64,000 nucleotides of DNA from Anaerolineales bacterium (GTDB lineage Bacteria > Chloroflexota > Anaerolineae > Anaerolineales > DRMV01): positions 12,942 to 76,941 of the forward strand of contig JALVVL010000017.1 of assembly GCA_027023425.1 (NCBI GenBank), read 5' to 3'. Below the pieces are notes generated by a model. That model was not told where the DNA came from, searched no databases, and saw nothing but the letters and a program-made list of their open reading frames with translations. Made by a program: the position numbers and the translations under genes. Position 1 is the first letter of the stretch. Every line of letters begins with the position of its first letter. Of the stretch, positions 2,599-6,932 are shown piece by piece.

Positions 2599-2670
2599 CC
2601 CCCAACGTCTATCTCCTCACACAGGGAACACGGCAGACACGGAGAGAACCTCTGTGTTCCCCGTGTGAAA

Positions 2671-2705
2671 AAGTAGAGGCGAAGTATGCTTCGCCTCTAC
2701 TTTTT
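2671..2705. terminator. bidirectional rho-independent terminator between convergent asd and loader genes
   Basis: Perfect 13-bp stem agtagaggcgaag / tatg / cttcgcctctact, flanked by aaaa upstream and tttttt downstream. It overlaps the last codons of the minus-strand ORF. Confidence 0.6.
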
Positions 2706-4034
2706 TCGTCTCCTTTTAGAGCGTTTCGCGCGAGGCGATTCGTAATAAGGCGGTGCGGTGATCAAAAATATGCGCGAAATGCGAGTATCCAGCATCCGCG
2801 ACCTAAGCCTCGGGTCCATCTCCTCCAACGGCACAGCCGTGGTTATCACGGTTGGCAATTCGGCGTTGTAACGGTAATTGAAAAGTTGATAAAGTTTCTC
2901 GCGCGCCCACGCCGTAGTCGCCTGAGTGCCCAAATCGTCCAACACCAATAGCGGCGCGGTGCGGATTTCCTCAAAACGGCGGTCGTAAGTAACGGTGCTG
3001 TTGGGACTGAAAGTGGCGCGCAAGTGGTCAAGCAAATCGGGAACGGAGACAAAAAGCGGCGGCTCGCCCATGCCAGCGCGGTAATTGGCGATGGCGGCGG
3101 CGAGGTGCGTTTTCCCGTTCCCGTAAGGGCCGGAAAACACTAACCAGCCACGAGGGTCGTTGGCAAACTCGCGGGCGGCGTTGTAAGCCTTGCGAAGGCT
3201 CTCAACGTCCCGCGGGTCAAGTCCCTCCTCCTCGCGCAGGCTAAAATTGCCAAAAGTGTACTTGCCCATCAGGTCTAATGCCGAAAGTTCAGAATGTCCA
3301 ACCTCATCTACCGCGCGGCGGTAATCGGGAGCGTCTATTTTGATCTTCGCAACCACGTCGGGGTCTTGCAGGCGAGATCGCAGGCGCGGCTCAATTTCTT
3401 CCAAAGTGAGGTTGGTGGTTATCACCGTAGGCAAGCGGTTGATGTAACGGAAATTCAAAATCTGGAAAAGTTTTTCTTGTGCCCACGGGGTAGCGTTTTG
3501 AGTGCCGAAATCATCCAAAATCAGCAACGGCACAGAACGAATTTGCTCAAAACGCTTTTCAAATCCCCCCTCGGGGGAATCATAAGCAAAGCGCAGGTTA
3601 TCCAACAAGTCAGGCACGGTGAGGAAGAGCGTAGAAATGCCCTTTTCAACGCAATAATTTGCAATGGCGGCGGCAAGGTGCGTTTTCCCGCATCCGTAGC
3701 CTCCCATTAGCAAAAGCCACCCACTTGGGTTTTCGGCGAATTGGCGGGCAAAATTGTAGGCTGATTCTATGGAACGGGCTTGGCGGGGACCGGTGCCCAT
3801 GCGACCGTGTGGCTTAAAAGTTTCAAAAGTCAAATGCCCCAATTTATCAAGGTGGCTCATAGCAAAAAGACGGCGACGGCGCGCCTCCTCTATTGCTGAG
3901 GTGCGGCAAACGCAAGGCACCAGTTTGCCAAATTGTGGATGGCCGGGGGGGACATCAAGGCGTACATAGCCTACCCCGTGGCATATCGGGCAATTTGGGT
4001 CGCCGGGAAGGCTGGATTTGTTCTGCTCACTCAT
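2697..4034 (-). CDS. helicase-loader-like protein with N-terminal zinc ribbon and two tandem DnaC/DnaI-type AAA+ modules
   Basis: Two Walker A motifs: GGYGCGKTHLAAAIANY (GCGKT codons 3681-3695) and GPYGNGKTHLAAAIANY (GNGKT codons 3108-3122). Two Walker B motifs: LLILDDFG and LLVLDDLG. N-terminal CPICHG..17 aa..CVC (3906-3992). Start chosen at ATG 4034, which overlaps the upstream stop by 8 nt; the ORF track extends to 4145. Confidence 0.8.
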   Translation of the reverse strand: MSEQNKSSLPGDPNCPICHGVGYVRLDVPPGHPQFGKLVPCVCRTSAIEEARRRRLFAMSHLDKLGHLTFETFKPHGRMGTGPRQARSIESAYNFARQFAENPSGWLLLMGGYGCGKTHLAAAIANYCVEKGISTLFLTVPDLLDNLRFAYDSPEGGFEKRFEQIRSVPLLILDDFGTQNATPWAQEKLFQILNFRYINRLPTVITTNLTLEEIEPRLRSRLQDPDVVAKIKIDAPDYRRAVDEVGHSELSALDLMGKYTFGNFSLREEEGLDPRDVESLRKAYNAAREFANDPRGWLVFSGPYGNGKTHLAAAIANYRAGMGEPPLFVSVPDLLDHLRATFSPNSTVTYDRRFEEIRTAPLLVLDDLGTQATTAWAREKLYQLFNYRYNAELPTVITTAVPLEEMDPRLRSRMLDTRISRIFLITAPPYYESPRAKRSKRRRKK

Positions 4035-4731
4035 AGTAGTCTGAGAACTTGTCGGTGAGATACCGTTCACGGTCTTTCGCAGGATCTCCGCTAAAGGCTT
4101 TGCCATCGCGTCCCTCATCTCTCCAGTGTTGCAAAATTGCTTCAATGTAACGCCAGCGGCGGACGTTGTTCGCTATGGCTATGCGAAACGCCTCTTCAAT
4201 CCACTCTGCCGGGTATTCCGCTGCGGCTTCCTCCAATTGCTCAGCAATCAAAGGCGTCAAAGGCCCGATATTTTCCTCATAAAGCCGAAAGATGTTGGGG
4301 CGGTCAAGGTAAACCCGAGGTGGCTCGGCATCGCCATCGGGACGCCAACGACCCGCGCGTATGGCCTCAACCGCCGTTCTGCCTTTAGGGGTGTTCAAAA
4401 AGTAAAGGTCTTCGCCATCGGGAAGGGATACCTTCAACAAAGTACCCCTTTCCACAGCACGGCGCAATGAATCCTCAAGCACACTCACGGCTTCCTCAGG
4501 GTTGTCCGCCAAGCCAGAAACAAAGCCTTCATCCGCTAAAATAGCCTCTCGGGTAAAGTAGCGAAAATTCCCTTCCACCTGACTCAAATACCAAAAAGCG
4601 TACAGCGTGACCTTCAATTCGCCCAAATGGTCAATCTCGGGCACAAGTTGGGTAAAAAACTGCACCGGCAACGAAATAAGGCGCACTTTACCAGTCGGGA
4701 AACCCTGAAACGCCATCAGAACCCCTTGCAT
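4027..4731 (-). CDS. DnaD-domain replication protein (DnaD/DnaB_2-like)
   Basis: The C-terminal segment ...IANNVRRWRYIEAILQHWRDEG... matches the DnaD C-terminal domain pattern. It sits between dnaB and the loader gene. The start is uncertain (ATG 4731, 4716 or 4743). The track start at 4800 lies inside a repeat element. Confidence 0.65.
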   Translation of the reverse strand: MQGVLMAFQGFPTGKVRLISLPVQFFTQLVPEIDHLGELKVTLYAFWYLSQVEGNFRYFTREAILADEGFVSGLADNPEEAVSVLEDSLRRAVERGTLLKVSLPDGEDLYFLNTPKGRTAVEAIRAGRWRPDGDAEPPRVYLDRPNIFRLYEENIGPLTPLIAEQLEEAAAEYPAEWIEEAFRIAIANNVRRWRYIEAILQHWRDEGRDGKAFSGDPAKDRERYLTDKFSDYYE

Positions 4732-4740
4732 TTTAGATGT

Positions 4741-4830
4741 CATTGCGAGCCGCGAAACGGCGAAGCAATCCCCCCTTCGGGTGGCAAGGGACTGCTTCAC
4801 TGCCTCAATGGTTACGCCGCCTCGCAGGGA
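4741..4830. repeat. family-A imperfect palindromic intergenic repeat (cattgcgagcc...gcgaagcaatcccc...gactgcttc...ccgcctcgcag)
   Basis: Shares the cattgcgag, ggcgaagcaatccccc, gactgcttc and ccgcctcgcag blocks, in the same order, with the copy at 7012-7095. Confidence 0.7.
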
Positions 4831-4848: not shown

Positions 4849-6294
4849 CTAAGGGTAACCGGGAGAGGACGGCGGGTCAATAAACTGAGCGTATTCTTTT
4901 TTGAATACCAACTCTATCGTGCCCGTAGGGCCATTACGATGCTTTTCTACAATGATTTGGGCAAGGCCGGGGTTCTCCACAACCTCATCTTCCTTTGCGT
5001 AAACCTCAGGACGGTATATGAACATCACCACATCGGCATCCTGTTCCAGCGAGCCCGATTCGCGCAAATCCGAAAGCATGGGACGCCTATCGCCGCGGTG
5101 CTCCACGGCGCGCGAAAGTTGCGCCGCCGCCACCACAGGCACGTTCAACTCCCGCGCCAACACCTTCAGTTCGCGGGAAATTTGCGAAACTTCCTGCACG
5201 CGGTTTTCAACCCGCTTGCCAAGCGTCATCAACTGCAAATAGTCCACCATTATCAAATCCAAGCCGTATTCCAAATGCAAGCGCCGGGCTTTAGTCCGCA
5301 ATTGCAAAGGGGTGATAGCAGGCGTATCATCCAAAAAAATCGGCGCCTGATGAAGGTGGTCAACGGCGGCGGTCACCTTACGCCATTCTTCGTCGTTCAG
5401 CCTGCCGGTGCGCAATTTTTGCGAACTCACTTCAGTTTCCTGCGCTATCAAACGTTGCACCATTTGCTCATTGGACATTTCCAAGGAAAAAAGGGCAACC
5501 CGTTTGCGGTATTTTTGAGCGGCGGTGCGGGCAATGCTCAACAAAAAGCCGGTTTTGCCCATTCCCGGGCGGCCAGCAATTATGATAAAGTCCGAAGGCT
5601 GAAATCCATGCAAAAGGGCGTCAAGGTCTCTAAAGCCAGTAGGGACACCGAGGGCTTCATCTTGATGAGAGCGGAGATGATCAAGGTAGTTGTAGTACGA
5701 CTGCAACACCTCACTCAGGAGTTTGACCCCGCGCACCATGCGCCGCTCACTGACACTGAAGACAACCTTTTCTGCTTCGTCCAGAAGCGCATCAACATGA
5801 AGGTGGCGGGCATGGGCTAAGCGAGCGATCCGCTCAGCCGCCTCAAGCAAACGGCGGCGGACGGCCGCTTCCTCCACCAACTCGGCATAATGCGAAGCGT
5901 GAAGCGATGAGGGGACAGCCGCGGTGAGCCGCGCCAGATAAGCCTCGCCGCCAACCTCCTCAAGCCTCCCACGGCGCTTGAGTTCTTCGGCAATCGTCAA
6001 AGGGTCAACAGGCCGATGGCTCTCACTAAGGCTGACTATAGCCTCCCAAATCCAACGGTGGCGGGTTATGAAGAAATCCTCGGCCTTGATGATGGTGGCA
6101 ACTTCGGCGTACGTTTCGGGGTTGATGATAACCGCGCCCAGCACCGCCTCCTCTGCCTTGGTGTCGTGAAGAGGCGTAGCGGGCTCAGGAGCAGGCTCCG
6201 GCTGTGGCAAATCCTCAGCATAGCCCAAATCCACCGGCGGAGGGGCATCGGGCATATCGGGAGGCGGCGGGGGCGGAAGCATTTCGTCGCTCAT
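4849..6294 (-). CDS. dnaB: replicative DNA helicase DnaB
   Basis: 481 aa. N-terminal domain AEEAVLGAVIINPE, Walker A GRPGMGKT, plus SLEMS and DYLQLM. Its ATG overlaps the upstream stop as ATGA (6291-6294). Confidence 0.95.
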   Translation of the reverse strand: MSDEMLPPPPPPDMPDAPPPVDLGYAEDLPQPEPAPEPATPLHDTKAEEAVLGAVIINPETYAEVATIIKAEDFFITRHRWIWEAIVSLSESHRPVDPLTIAEELKRRGRLEEVGGEAYLARLTAAVPSSLHASHYAELVEEAAVRRRLLEAAERIARLAHARHLHVDALLDEAEKVVFSVSERRMVRGVKLLSEVLQSYYNYLDHLRSHQDEALGVPTGFRDLDALLHGFQPSDFIIIAGRPGMGKTGFLLSIARTAAQKYRKRVALFSLEMSNEQMVQRLIAQETEVSSQKLRTGRLNDEEWRKVTAAVDHLHQAPIFLDDTPAITPLQLRTKARRLHLEYGLDLIMVDYLQLMTLGKRVENRVQEVSQISRELKVLARELNVPVVAAAQLSRAVEHRGDRRPMLSDLRESGSLEQDADVVMFIYRPEVYAKEDEVVENPGLAQIIVEKHRNGPTGTIELVFKKEYAQFIDPPSSPGYP

Positions 6295-6932
6295 TGCTCA
6301 GACTCACCATCGTCATCAGGCGATTCATCCTCAGCATCGCCCAAATCCAATTTGTCAAGGAATTCGGCAAAGACAGAAAGGCTGTCCTCATTCTCGGTCA
6401 CAGGCTCGGTGGCTTCGGGGGAAGTCTCGCCACTCACCGCCGAGACACCGCCGGAAGAAGAGGCTAAATGCTCCTCAGGCTGAGGAGGCTGAGCGGCGGC
6501 TTCTTCCGATTGACCTAAATCTTCATCGGGGGTAATACCGGCTTCGTCCAAAACCTCGCGCGCCACAAAAATAGGCGCGTGCATCCGCACGGCAACGGCA
6601 ATGGCATCGGAAGGGCGCGAATCAATGTTGTAGATTCGTCCCTGATGGCTCAAGACAATGTTGCCGTAAAAAGTGCCTTCCCGCAAGGCGGTAACCTCCA
6701 CCCTATCAACGCGCGCCCCCAACGCCAAGAGGATGTTTTTGAGCAAATCATGCGTCATCGGGCGCGAAAGTTCAACCTCGTGCAAGGCCAGTTGGATGGC
6801 GTTTGCCTCGTATGCTCCAATCCAAATCGGCAAATAGCGCTTGCCGTTGCGCTCGCGCAGCAACAAAACCTGTTGCTGAGAGACAAGGCTCACGCGTATG
6901 CTGTCAATTTCCATTTCCACAAGGTCTGCCAT
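6291..6932 (-). CDS. bifunctional nuclease (BFN/DUF151) family protein with acidic C-terminal tail
   Basis: Motifs LPIWIGAYEANAI, RPMTHDL and RPSDAIAVAVR. aaggagg RBS. The C-terminal ~70 aa are rich in E, D and S. Confidence 0.8.
   Translation of the reverse strand: MADLVEMEIDSIRVSLVSQQQVLLLRERNGKRYLPIWIGAYEANAIQLALHEVELSRPMTHDLLKNILLALGARVDRVEVTALREGTFYGNIVLSHQGRIYNIDSRPSDAIAVAVRMHAPIFVAREVLDEAGITPDEDLGQSEEAAAQPPQPEEHLASSSGGVSAVSGETSPEATEPVTENEDSLSVFAEFLDKLDLGDAEDESPDDDGESEQ

What the first reader, a model, noticed from the sequence alone, without database searches (positions are those of the whole stretch)
2697..4034. Helicase-loader homologue with two complete DnaC/DnaI AAA+ modules in one polypeptide plus an N-terminal zinc ribbon
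Residues ~95-275 and ~285-465 (numbered on the 482-aa track ORF) are clear internal paralogues at roughly 50% identity by eye. Each carries Walker A (GCGKTHLAAAIANY / GNGKTHLAAAIANY), Walker B (LLILDDFG / LLVLDDLG) and the PRLRSR segment. They are preceded by CPICHG...CVC, which resembles the DnaI N-terminal Zn domain. Known DnaC/DnaI loaders have one AAA+ module and oligomerise on hexameric DnaB. A covalent tandem would give a trimer-of-dimers pseudo-hexamer and allow the two sites to specialise. Both sites look catalytically intact.
Basis: partly seen in the sequence, partly recalled or inferred. Interest (0 to 1): 0.55.

Follow-up and report, generated by a model that had tools for sequence, protein, structure and literature searches.

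The report
Helicase loader with duplicated ATPase module
This gene encodes the DNA-replication helicase loader of an Anaerolineae (Chloroflexota) bacterium, and unlike every studied DnaC/DnaI loader it carries two ATPase modules in one chain, the second of which has lost residues needed to hydrolyse ATP, a conserved natural variant that I did not find described in the literature I could search.

Summary
The minus-strand ORF ending at 2697 encodes a zinc ribbon followed by two DnaC/DnaI-type AAA+ modules. The modules are 52% identical (E=3e-64), and Pfam and NCBIfam each report two matched stretches. It is not a frameshift or assembly fusion. The best 80 species-representative genome hits, all Anaerolineales-type and including Anaerolinea thermophila, encode the same full-length two-module protein. 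In 74 of those 80 loci the gene order is nuclease, dnaB, dnaD-like, loader. Members are also labelled Dehalococcoidia, while Ktedonobacteria relatives have one module.

Both modules keep the Walker A Lys, the Walker B Asp, the RxxxR arginine coupler/finger motif and the four ssDNA-contact positions. The C-terminal module, however, has Ala at the sensor I position (E. coli DnaC N203) and Tyr at sensor II (R237). Mutating either residue abolishes E. coli DnaC ATPase activity. Sensor I Asn is missing from 68 of 82 diverse C-modules (the query included), and no tandem member keeps all hydrolysis-linked residues in both modules.

The zinc ribbon is real but shows no detectable similarity to the DnaI N-terminal domain. 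The true start is probably ATG 4106 (469 aa), which overlaps the dnaD-like gene by 80 nt. The trimer-of-dimers stoichiometry is untested, and a four-module variant in the same gene slot argues against a strict pseudo-hexamer. Verdict: a new variant of a known kind, of moderate interest.

The parts
2697..4106 (-).
   Evidence: ORF list; GAGG-N6-ATG at 4106; leader conserved in homologues and in other genomes
4011..4106 (-). N-terminal leader (res 1-32, MAKPLAEILRK...SPTSSQT). Its first 80 nt (4027-4106) lie inside the 3' end of the dnaD-like gene, in another frame
   Evidence: Homologue leaders; AF2 gives a short helix at 5-13 with low pLDDT; the overlap is conserved
3903..3992 (-). Four-Cys zinc ribbon CPICHGVGY-x16-CVCR (res 39-68; CxxCxGxG...CxC)
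   Evidence: C65 and C67 are invariant and C39 and C42 are >=90% conserved. The motif is in 115/116 near relatives and 70/84 diverse representatives with enough N-terminus. AF2 gives two short strands, pLDDT 74-82. No DnaI_N hit
3297..3869 (-). N-terminal AAA+ module (res 80-270), with a complete catalytic set
   Evidence: Pfam and NCBIfam stretch 1; module HMM; best PDB sequence matches are DnaI 2W58, 2QGZ, 5HE8 and DnaC 3ECC
3681..3704 (-). Walker A of the N-module, GGYGCGKT (K141)
   Evidence: Lys in 201/201 N-modules; coordinates checked
3504..3527 (-). Walker B of the N-module, LLILDDFG (D198, D199)
3411..3413 (-). Sensor I Asn232 of the N-module (equivalent of E. coli DnaC N203)
   Evidence: Asn in 169/201 N-modules (49/81 diverse representatives) and 20/24 single-module relatives
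3372..3386 (-). Box VII of the N-module, R241-L-R-S-R245 (RxxxR: proposed arginine coupler plus arginine finger)
   Evidence: R245 column is Arg in 196/201 and R241 column in 183/201. The RxxxR spacing is as in DnaC R216/R220. The 18-residue distance to sensor II compares with 17 in E. coli DnaC (inference)
3318..3320 (-). Sensor II Arg263 of the N-module (APDYR; proposed equivalent of E. coli DnaC R237)
   Evidence: Arg in 175/201, the rest mostly gaps
2733..3296 (-). C-terminal AAA+ module (res 271-458), 52% identical to the N-module, with a degenerate hydrolysis set
   Evidence: best PDB sequence match is E. coli DnaC 6QEL, E=3e-15
3108..3131 (-). Walker A of the C-module, GPYGNGKT (K332)
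   Evidence: Lys in 200/201 C-modules
2928..2951 (-). Walker B of the C-module, LLVLDDLG (D390, D391)
2835..2837 (-). Ala424 at the sensor I position of the C-module (aligned to E. coli DnaC N203)
   Evidence: Ungapped phmmer alignment to 6QEL_G. Asn in only 14/201 C-modules (14/81 representatives); Ala 104, Ser 31
2796..2810 (-). Box VII of the C-module, R433-L-R-S-R437
   Evidence: R437 column is Arg in 198/201. The coupler column is Arg in 158/201 overall but only 38/81 representatives
2742..2744 (-). Tyr455 at the sensor II position of the C-module (APPYY)
   Evidence: This column is R120/H33/T16/Y13 in C-modules, and R in 68/81 diverse representatives, so the loss is specific to the query's clade
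2700..2732 (-). Basic C-terminal tail RAKRSKRRRKK
   Evidence: Translation; Arg/Lys-rich tails are common in homologues; AF2 pLDDT <50
4027..4800 (-). Upstream DnaD-domain protein (257 aa), the probable initiation adaptor
   Evidence: Pfam DnaB_2 PF07261 at 43.6 bits; TIGR01446 DnaD_dom at 48.2 bits; adjacent to the loader in 80/80 loci
4849..6294 (-). Replicative helicase DnaB (481 aa), the presumed client
   Evidence: TIGR00665 at 552 bits against a cutoff of 385; found in the 78 of 80 loci whose upstream sequence reaches it
6291..6932 (-). Bifunctional-nuclease-domain protein, first gene of the conserved cluster
   Evidence: PF02577 at 144 bits; present in 74/80 loci
2667..2706 (.). 18-bp hairpin with flanking T/A runs: a probable bidirectional terminator that closes the operon

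Best explanation
This is the resident DnaC/DnaI-type loader for the replicative helicase of an Anaerolineae bacterium, encoded in a conserved dnaB - dnaD-like - loader operon. Its AAA+ unit, together with the preceding TFxNF linker, has been duplicated inside the gene. One chain therefore carries one N-terminal zinc-ribbon domain and two ATPase modules joined by a flexible linker.

Shown: the two-module architecture, its conservation across many species, its synteny, and the residue pattern of each module.

Inferred mechanism: the zinc-ribbon region docks the loader on DnaB. Both modules bind ATP, because Walker A and B are intact in both. Both donate an arginine finger to a neighbouring site, and both contact ssDNA through the conserved R / F-Y / T-S / W tetrad. 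Together they build a DnaC-like AAA+ spiral.

Only the N-module site keeps the full hydrolysis set of sensor I Asn, arginine coupler and sensor II Arg. The C-module site, with Ala and Tyr at the two sensor positions, probably holds ATP as a structural or assembly nucleotide with little or no turnover. The loader would then be hard-wired with unequal live and degenerate sites, as happens in ORC/Cdc6, clamp loaders and many two-module AAA+ proteins.

Three chains per DnaB hexamer (six modules, three docking domains) is the simplest stoichiometry, but it has not been shown.
For: Architecture: two PF01695 and PRK08116 stretches; halves 52% identical, E=3e-64. AF2 gives two well-folded AAA+ cores, each with two helices between strands 2 and 3 (pLDDT mostly 80-95), joined by a linker with pLDDT <50. 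The best single-module structural match is E. coli DnaC 6QEM_G, TM 0.64, rmsd 2.5 A.

Real and conserved: the best 120 of more than 8000 homologues are 376-488 aa, all but one covering at least 89% of the query. There are 81 complete tandem representatives down to 33% identity. The best 80 species-genome hits are all full length and include Anaerolinea thermophila, Brevefilum, Longilinea and Thermanaerothrix. Some clusters are labelled Dehalococcoidia.

Loader role: the order BFN-DnaB-DnaD-like-loader holds in 74/80 loci, and the rest are cut by contig ends. Brezellec et al. 2016 already counted one resident dna[CI] lineage in Chloroflexi.

Asymmetry: sensor I Asn is present in 169/201 N-modules, 14/201 C-modules and 20/24 single-module relatives. 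The query C-module has Ala at the N203 position and Tyr at sensor II. N203A and R237D abolish E. coli DnaC ATPase. None of 82 tandem proteins (81 representatives plus the query) keeps sensor I, coupler and sensor II in both modules.

Both modules engaged: Walker A Lys 201/201 and 200/201; finger Arg 196/201 and 198/201; the four ssDNA-contact positions are at least 93% conservatively retained in each module.

Old duplication: the N and C modules of one protein are sisters in only 2 of 82 cases in an NJ tree, which has large pure-N and pure-C clades.
Against: There is no biochemical or structural evidence for this family, so function rests on homology and synteny. AF2 gives no confident inter-module interface (pTM 0.52), leaving cis or trans pairing of sites and stoichiometry open.

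The arginine-finger assignment needs a 4-residue gap relative to E. coli DnaC. The ungapped phmmer alignment puts R437 opposite R216, not R220.

The asymmetry is not uniform. In some lineages the N-module is the degenerate one (for example P0253 and P0244). 32 of 81 diverse N-modules lack the Asn, and Ser or Thr at the sensor I position might still support hydrolysis.

HMMs trained on the query clade place the N-module as more N-like than its partner in only 54/81 distant proteins. A single origin of the duplication is therefore likely but not proven.

A four-module variant does not fit a 3x2 hexamer.
Confidence: 0.72

Rival explanations
1. The protein is a symmetric covalent dimer with two fully active ATP sites, and three copies form a trimer-of-dimers pseudo-hexamer equivalent to six DnaC protomers.
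For: Walker A, Walker B and the RLRSR motif are intact in both modules. The ssDNA tetrad is kept in both. Six modules from three chains would match the DnaC6:DnaB6 geometry of 6QEM (established knowledge).
Against: The C-module has Ala at sensor I and Tyr at sensor II, and the equivalent E. coli DnaC mutants have no ATPase activity. The loss is systematic across the family. The four-module variant in the same slot does not divide into six. AF2 gives no fixed dimer-like packing.
Confidence: 0.12
2. The protein is the same loader, but six chains bind each DnaB hexamer, one zinc-ribbon domain per DnaB subunit. That gives twelve AAA+ modules arranged as two tiers or as an extended open filament on ssDNA, and the second module serves as a regulatory or DNA-binding extension.
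For: Known loaders dock one N-terminal domain per DnaB subunit (DnaC6:DnaB6). Initiator-clade AAA+ proteins form open spirals that can extend. Variants with three or four modules exist, so module number is not fixed at a divisor of six. Foldseek aligns the whole model to two-module p97/NSF-type chains (E about 1e-11).
Against: The Foldseek matches to two-tier AAA+ proteins have TM 0.24-0.37 and rmsd 12-17 A, so the arrangement does not match. There is no direct evidence for either stoichiometry.
Confidence: 0.2
3. The tandem is an artefact: a frameshift or assembly error has fused two adjacent single-module genes.
For: None found.
Against: The continuous ORF is conserved in independent assemblies. 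All of the best 80 species genomes and 201 full-length proteins show it, in the same register. The halves are only 52% identical, so repeat collapse is not an issue. An identical-length protein was called independently in ENA data (P0001).
Confidence: 0.01
4. The protein is a mobile-element ATPase, either an IS21 IstB-type transposition helper or a prophage replication protein, and not the chromosomal loader.
For: The best Pfam name is IstB_IS21. Single-module DnaC-like genes are common in phages (883 phage records match).
Against: The NCBIfam IstB equivalog scores 144.6, below its cutoff of 200. There is no IstA transposase nearby; the neighbours are dnaB, a dnaD-like gene and asd. The chromosomal synteny is conserved in 74/80 species. 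GC content is even across the region. The listed top phage hits are all single-module, about 714 nt.
Confidence: 0.02

Closest known systems
E. coli DnaC (PDB 6QEL/6QEM) and Aquifex aeolicus DnaC (3ECC)
   Same: It has an initiator-clade AAA+ fold with Walker A and B, sensor I, RxxxR coupler/finger and sensor II. The ssDNA tetrad positions K143, F146, S177 and Y179 are kept as R, F/Y, T/S and W. It is the best structural match (TM 0.64, rmsd 2.5 A) and the best sequence match for the C-module.
   Different: DnaC has one AAA+ module and a helical N-terminal helicase-binding domain with no zinc. Here there are two modules, a zinc ribbon, and a DnaD-like partner. The NCBIfam DnaC equivalog scores 130.6, far below its cutoff of 357.
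Firmicute DnaI (Geobacillus 2W58, B. subtilis 4M4W, S. aureus 5HE8, S. pyogenes 2QGZ)
   Same: These are the best PDB sequence matches for the N-module (E about 1e-17). Like DnaI, this protein has a zinc-containing N-terminal region ahead of the AAA+ part and works in a DnaD-containing system.
   Different: DnaI has a single AAA+ module. There is no detectable similarity to the DnaI_N domain. The DnaI equivalog scores 149, below its cutoff of 228.
NCBIfam PRK08116 / PRK06835 'ATP-binding protein' (Clostridia-type DnaC-like proteins)
   Same: This is the only curated model passed (PRK08116, 244 bits against a cutoff of 189). The PRK06835 alignment starts at the zinc ribbon, so the Zn-plus-AAA+ layout is shared.
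   Different: Those models describe proteins of 269-330 aa with one module. Here each module matches separately.
Single-module Chloroflexota relatives (Ktedonobacteria such as Thermosporothrix hazakensis 'DnaC'; short Zn+AAA+ proteins such as P0226)
   Same: They belong to the same lineage, 43-57% identical to either query module. They have the same zinc ribbon and a full catalytic set, with sensor I Asn in 20/24.
   Different: They have one module. The Ktedonobacteria forms carry a 200-350 aa N-terminal extension.
AAA+ assemblies with hard-wired unequal sites (ORC/Cdc6, clamp loaders, two-module p97/NSF/Pex1-Pex6)
   Same: The concept is shared: some sites bind ATP for assembly while others hydrolyse, and in the second group two AAA+ modules sit in one chain. 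This comparison rests on established knowledge. Foldseek aligns both modules to p97-type chains.
   Different: They belong to different clades or use separate subunits. The geometry does not match (TM 0.24-0.37). None of them is a bacterial helicase loader.

Membership tests
DnaC/DnaI-type helicase loaders (AAA+ initiator clade, Pfam PF01695) | PF01695 ATPase domain above the gathering score | tested here: met
   137.5 bits against 24.1, with two stretches
DnaC/DnaI-type helicase loaders (AAA+ initiator clade, Pfam PF01695) | Full catalytic set: Walker A Lys, Walker B acid, sensor I Asn, Arg finger, sensor II Arg | tested here: met
   Met by the N-module (K141, D198/D199, N232, R245, R263). 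The C-module lacks sensor I (A424) and sensor II (Y455)
DnaC/DnaI-type helicase loaders (AAA+ initiator clade, Pfam PF01695) | Initiator-specific two-helix insertion between strands 2 and 3, and ssDNA-contact residues | tested here: met
   AF2 helices 164-176/181-190 and 355-364/374-382. The tetrad equivalents are conserved in both modules. The contact role itself is inferred
DnaC/DnaI-type helicase loaders (AAA+ initiator clade, Pfam PF01695) | Resident chromosomal gene with conserved context linked to the replicative helicase | tested here: met
   dnaB - dnaD-like - loader in the 78 of 80 loci whose upstream sequence reaches dnaB
DnaC/DnaI-type helicase loaders (AAA+ initiator clade, Pfam PF01695) | One AAA+ module per polypeptide (all characterised members) | tested here: not met
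   Two modules; three- and four-module relatives also exist
DnaC/DnaI-type helicase loaders (AAA+ initiator clade, Pfam PF01695) | Binds DnaB and loads it on ssDNA | not testable with these tools
   Needs biochemistry or a multimer structure
DnaI (NCBIfam PRK08939 equivalog; Pfam DnaI_N) | Equivalog score above cutoff, and the DnaI N-terminal zinc domain | tested here: not met
   149 bits, below the cutoff of 228. No DnaI_N hit at E<=10 and no hit to any DnaI N-terminal-domain structure
DnaC (NCBIfam PRK07952 equivalog) | Equivalog score above cutoff | tested here: not met
   130.6 bits, below the cutoff of 357
NCBIfam PRK08116 subfamily | Score above the curated cutoff | tested here: met
   244 bits against 189, summed over two stretches
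IS21 IstB transposition helper | Equivalog score above cutoff and an adjacent IstA transposase | tested here: not met
   144.6 bits, below the cutoff of 200. The neighbours are the dnaD-like gene and asd, with no transposase
Two-tier (type II) AAA+ ATPases such as p97/NSF | Two AAA+ modules that stack as two rings, with classic-clade features | tested here: inconclusive
   Two modules are present, but Foldseek TM is 0.24-0.37 and rmsd 12-17 A. AF2 pTM is 0.52, so the inter-module geometry is undefined. By sequence the modules belong to the initiator clade

The most novel reading that the evidence does not exclude
The loader may be an obligately asymmetric machine. Three chains, each with one docking domain, one hydrolytic site and one permanently ATP-bound 'glue' site, would load a DnaB hexamer. 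That would match the three-fold (trimer-of-dimers) symmetry of the DnaB N-terminal collar. It would also separate, in a natural protein, the assembly role of ATP from its release role. Recurrent module amplification (two, three or four modules) would then mean the family tunes filament length and not ring closure.
Probability: 0.25. Interest if true: 0.7.

Novelty: new variant of a known kind. Interest (0 to 1): 0.5.

Why it matters
How loader ATP sites divide the work between assembling on DnaB and ssDNA and then letting go is still studied with engineered point mutants of homo-oligomeric DnaC. In those proteins every site changes at once. This lineage offers a natural loader in which two sites are covalently linked and have diverged. 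One keeps the full hydrolysis set, and the other keeps only the binding, finger and DNA-contact residues. That makes site-specific questions directly testable with a cultured organism's protein (Anaerolinea thermophila).

The finding also shows that the 'one domestication in Chloroflexi' recorded in the DciA/DnaC survey is architecturally distinct from DnaC and DnaI. In addition, it corrects a widespread gene-start miscall and documents a conserved 80-nt dual-coding overlap with the dnaD-like gene.

The limits are clear. The fold, family and general role are all familiar, and no new chemistry is implied.

Tried and rejected
1. Frameshift or assembly fusion was rejected.
2. An IstB or mobile-element origin was rejected.
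3. A phage origin for the tandem form was checked. tblastn against 50,697 phage records gave 883 hits, but every listed top hit is a single module of about 714 nt matched by both halves of the query.
4. Homology of the zinc ribbon to DnaI_N was not found by Pfam or PDB searches of the first 104 residues at E<=10.
5. The AF2 model was meant to show how the two modules pack. pTM 0.52 and a disordered linker mean it does not, and coordinates or PAE were not available to me.
6. Foldseek on the whole model was dominated by p97-type chains with poor TM scores. It was useful only for the DnaC single-module match.
7. I tested whether loss of sensor I in one module goes with loss of the arginine coupler in the same or the partner module, to infer which modules touch. 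The only significant associations found were within the N-module, and they are confounded by phylogeny and alignment, so no conclusion on geometry was drawn.
8. HMMs of the query clade's N- and C-modules were used to test deep orthology. They gave only weak separation (54/81), so a single origin of the duplication is not claimed as shown.
9. Seven literature searches found no description of a tandem DnaC/DnaI loader. The library covers only open-access papers and bioRxiv.
10. Rfam and tRNA scans of the whole window found nothing.
Full report
**What is there.** The minus strand carries an open frame from 4145 to 2697. It encodes a short leader, a four-Cys knuckle (CPICHGVGY-x16-CVCR), and two copies of a roughly 190-residue unit. 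The protein ends in a Lys/Arg-rich tail. The two units align over 182 residues at 52% identity, E=3e-64.

Pfam IstB_IS21 (PF01695, the domain shared by DnaC and DnaI) scores 137.5 bits with two stretches. NCBIfam PRK08116 scores 244 bits (cutoff 189), again with two stretches.

**Gene start.** ATG 4106 is the better candidate for three reasons:
- It is preceded by GAGG-N6.
- The added leader MAKPLAEILRK..SPTSSQT matches the M..KIDETLKKLA..S.ASSQTSSNT leader seen in many homologues.
- tblastn aligns the leader from query residue 1-5 in many other genomes.

With this start the loader gene overlaps the 3' end of the upstream gene by 80 nt, in a different frame. The same 80-nt overlap is present in Anaerolinea thermophila. 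Overlaps of 50-77 nt are seen by tblastn in most related loci.

**Not an artefact.** The best 120 of more than 8000 homologues are 376-488 aa, and all but one cover at least 89% of the query. An exhaustive HMMER search of 1.84 billion cluster representatives found 823 clusters at E<=1e-30. Among the best 150 were 81 complete two-module proteins, down to 33% identity.

A scan of one genome per GTDB species found at least 592 relatives. The best 80 are all full-length two-module genes in Anaerolineales-type genomes. They include Anaerolinea thermophila, Brevefilum, Longilinea and Thermanaerothrix. More distant tandem clusters are labelled Dehalococcoidia or Chloroflexota, and some include Tara Oceans sequences.

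Single-module relatives of the same lineage occur in Ktedonobacteria (Thermosporothrix hazakensis 'DnaC', with a long N-terminal extension) and in some unclassified Chloroflexota. The listed top hits in the phage collection are single-module only.

**Context.** Upstream on the same strand lie three genes:
- a DnaD-domain protein (4027-4800)
- the replicative helicase DnaB (4849-6294; TIGR00665, 552 bits)
- a bifunctional-nuclease-domain protein (6291-6932)

This order is found in 74 of 80 related loci, and the other six are cut by contig ends. An 18-bp hairpin with T-runs at 2667-2706 closes the operon against the convergent asd gene. GC content is even across the region. There is no transposase nearby, and the IstB equivalog model is not passed.

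Brezellec et al. 2016 recorded one resident dna[CI] lineage in Chloroflexi, with Anaerolinea thermophila in their data set, but said nothing about a duplication. This gene is that loader.

**The two modules are not equivalent.** I aligned 201 N-modules, 201 C-modules and 24 single-module relatives. I then read the columns that correspond to the E. coli DnaC residues defined by Puri et al.:
- Walker A K112
- Walker B E170
- sensor I N203
- arginine coupler R216
- arginine finger R220
- sensor II R237
- ssDNA tetrad K143, F146, S177, Y179

The phmmer alignment of the C-module to 6QEL fixes most of these equivalences directly. K332 aligns to K112 and D390/D391 to D169/E170. A424 aligns to N203. 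R/F/T/W align to K143/F146/S177/Y179.

Positions conserved in both modules:

| Position | N-modules | C-modules |
|---|---|---|
| Walker A Lys | 201/201 | 200/201 |
| First Walker B Asp | 201/201 | 199/201 |
| Last Arg of RLRSR | 196/201 | 198/201 |
| Four ssDNA-contact positions (conservative residues) | at least 95% | at least 93% |

Sensor I Asn behaves differently:

| Group | Sensor I Asn, all sequences | Sensor I Asn, 50%-identity representatives |
|---|---|---|
| N-modules | 169/201 | 49/81 |
| C-modules | 14/201 | 14/81 |
| Single-module relatives | 20/24 | 20/24 (all are representatives) |

In the query and its close relatives the C-module has Ala at this position. The query C-module also has Tyr at the sensor II position. 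That column is R/H/T/Y among close relatives but mostly Arg in distant ones, so the sensor II loss is specific to this clade.

The arginine coupler is Arg in 63/81 N-modules, 38/81 C-modules and 23/24 single-module proteins. None of 82 tandem proteins (81 representatives plus the query) keeps sensor I Asn, coupler Arg and sensor II Arg in both modules. The commonest pattern is an intact N-module with a C-module lacking sensor I.

In E. coli DnaC, N203A and R237D each abolish ATPase, and the sensor I mutant is the most defective in loading. The statement that both sites look catalytically intact is therefore not supported. The C-site most likely binds ATP but turns it over poorly or not at all.

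**Caveats on the residue assignments.**
- The ungapped phmmer alignment places the last Arg of RLRSR opposite R216, not R220. I assign it as the finger for three reasons. The RxxxR spacing reproduces the coupler/finger pair. The distance to sensor II (18 residues) matches E. coli (17). It is the near-invariant Arg. This remains an inference that a structural superposition would settle.
- The asymmetry is not uniform. In some lineages the N-module is the more divergent one (P0253, P0244), and some N-modules also lack the Asn.

**Age of the duplication.** Among representatives, N-to-N identity between proteins averages 0.40 and C-to-C averages 0.35. N-to-C identity within a protein averages 0.38. 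C-modules therefore evolve faster.

In a neighbour-joining tree the two modules of one protein are sisters in only 2 of 82 cases, and there are large pure-N and pure-C clades. The duplication thus predates the radiation of these lineages.

A test with HMMs trained on the query clade separates distant N- and C-modules only weakly (54/81). A single origin is likely but not shown.

Re-duplication does occur. P0128 has halves that are 86% identical. P0121 is an 827-aa protein with one zinc ribbon and four modules that are 38-62% identical to each other. It sits in the same DnaB - DnaD-like - loader slot on a 64-kb contig.

**Structure.** AF2 on a 102-sequence alignment gives mean pLDDT 80.2. It shows two canonical AAA+ cores, each with the two-helix insertion between strands 2 and 3 that is typical of the initiator clade. 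It also shows a small two-stranded zinc knuckle.

The linker at 264-270 has pLDDT below 50, and pTM is 0.52. No inter-module packing is predicted.

Foldseek's best single-module match is E. coli DnaC in the DnaBC-ssDNA complex (6QEM_G, TM 0.64, rmsd 2.5 A). Whole-chain matches to p97-type proteins have TM 0.24-0.37 and do not indicate a shared arrangement.

**Zinc ribbon.** The CxxCxGxG...CxC motif is present in 115/116 close relatives and 70/84 diverse representatives that have enough N-terminus. Most of the remainder carry a CxxCxGxG...CPNNP variant.

It shows no detectable similarity to the DnaI N-terminal domain in Pfam or in the PDB. The only faint echo is the DnaJ CxxCxGxG knuckle. A helicase-docking role is a reasonable analogy with DnaI, but it has not been shown.

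**Most likely mechanism (inferred).**
1. The N-terminal region docks the loader on DnaB, and the DnaD-like protein links the complex to the origin.
2. ATP binds to both modules, and both arginine fingers drive head-to-tail assembly of a DnaC-like spiral. In that spiral both modules touch ssDNA.
3. Hydrolysis, and hence release, is controlled mainly at the N-module sites, while the C-module sites act as stable assembly nucleotides.

Three chains per DnaB hexamer is the simplest arrangement. Six chains with twelve modules, or open filaments, are not excluded, and the four-module variant argues against a strict closed pseudo-hexamer.

**Novelty.** The family sits in databases as 'ATP-binding protein' or 'DnaC'. 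Seven full-text searches found no description of a tandem DnaC/DnaI loader, within the limits of an open-access library. I rate it a new variant of a known kind. The fold and role are familiar. The covalent duplication with unequal sites is new, and it is useful for dissecting how loader ATP sites divide their work.

Noticed in passing
window 4027-4106 (- strand); L061 5983-6062: The dnaD-like gene and the loader gene overlap out of frame by 80 nt. The same overlap is present in Anaerolinea thermophila, and tblastn overlaps of 50-77 nt occur in most of 80 related loci. Both frames are conserved, so this is a dual-coding stretch. It probably couples translation of the two genes and explains why gene callers truncate the loader to ATG 4034.
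   Followed up: partly
window 2667-2706: An 18-bp perfect hairpin (GAAAAAGTAGAGGCGAAG-TATG-CTTCGCCTCTACTTTTTT) has A/T runs on both sides. It lies between the convergent asd gene (1537-2598, +) and the loader stop codon. It is likely a bidirectional terminator, and its stem overlaps the codons of the loader's basic tail.
   Followed up: no
L081 5001-7484 (protein P0121): This 827-aa relative has one zinc ribbon and four AAA+ modules (38-62% identical to each other; the last one lacks sensor I Asn and sensor II Arg). It occupies the same DnaB - DnaD-like - loader slot. The DnaB there carries an intein. A further relative, P0128, has halves that are 86% identical. Module number in this family is therefore not fixed.
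   Followed up: partly
proteins P0227, P0234, P0242, P0250, P0261, P0270 (Ktedonobacteria, e.g. Thermosporothrix hazakensis): These single-module relatives carry a 200-350 aa N-terminal extension ahead of the zinc ribbon. They begin with the same MERL/MESLxDIL leader as the tandem proteins. The extension was not identified.
   Followed up: no
L011 (CAXMRF010000036.1): A full-length tandem loader with the typical Anaerolineae gene order sits on a contig of a MAG labelled 'uncultured Nitrosomonadaceae bacterium'. This is probably a binning or labelling error and not a true occurrence outside Chloroflexota.
   Followed up: no
window 1-64000: No tRNA gene and no Rfam family reached threshold anywhere in the 64-kb window. 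GC content rises to 0.60-0.625 at about 26-32 kb and 38-44 kb, against 0.53-0.55 around the loader.
   Followed up: no
window 6291-6294: The stop of the bifunctional-nuclease-domain gene (6291-6932) overlaps the start of dnaB (4849-6294) by 4 nt. This nuclease gene precedes dnaB in 74/80 related loci, a conserved pairing whose meaning is unknown.
   Followed up: no
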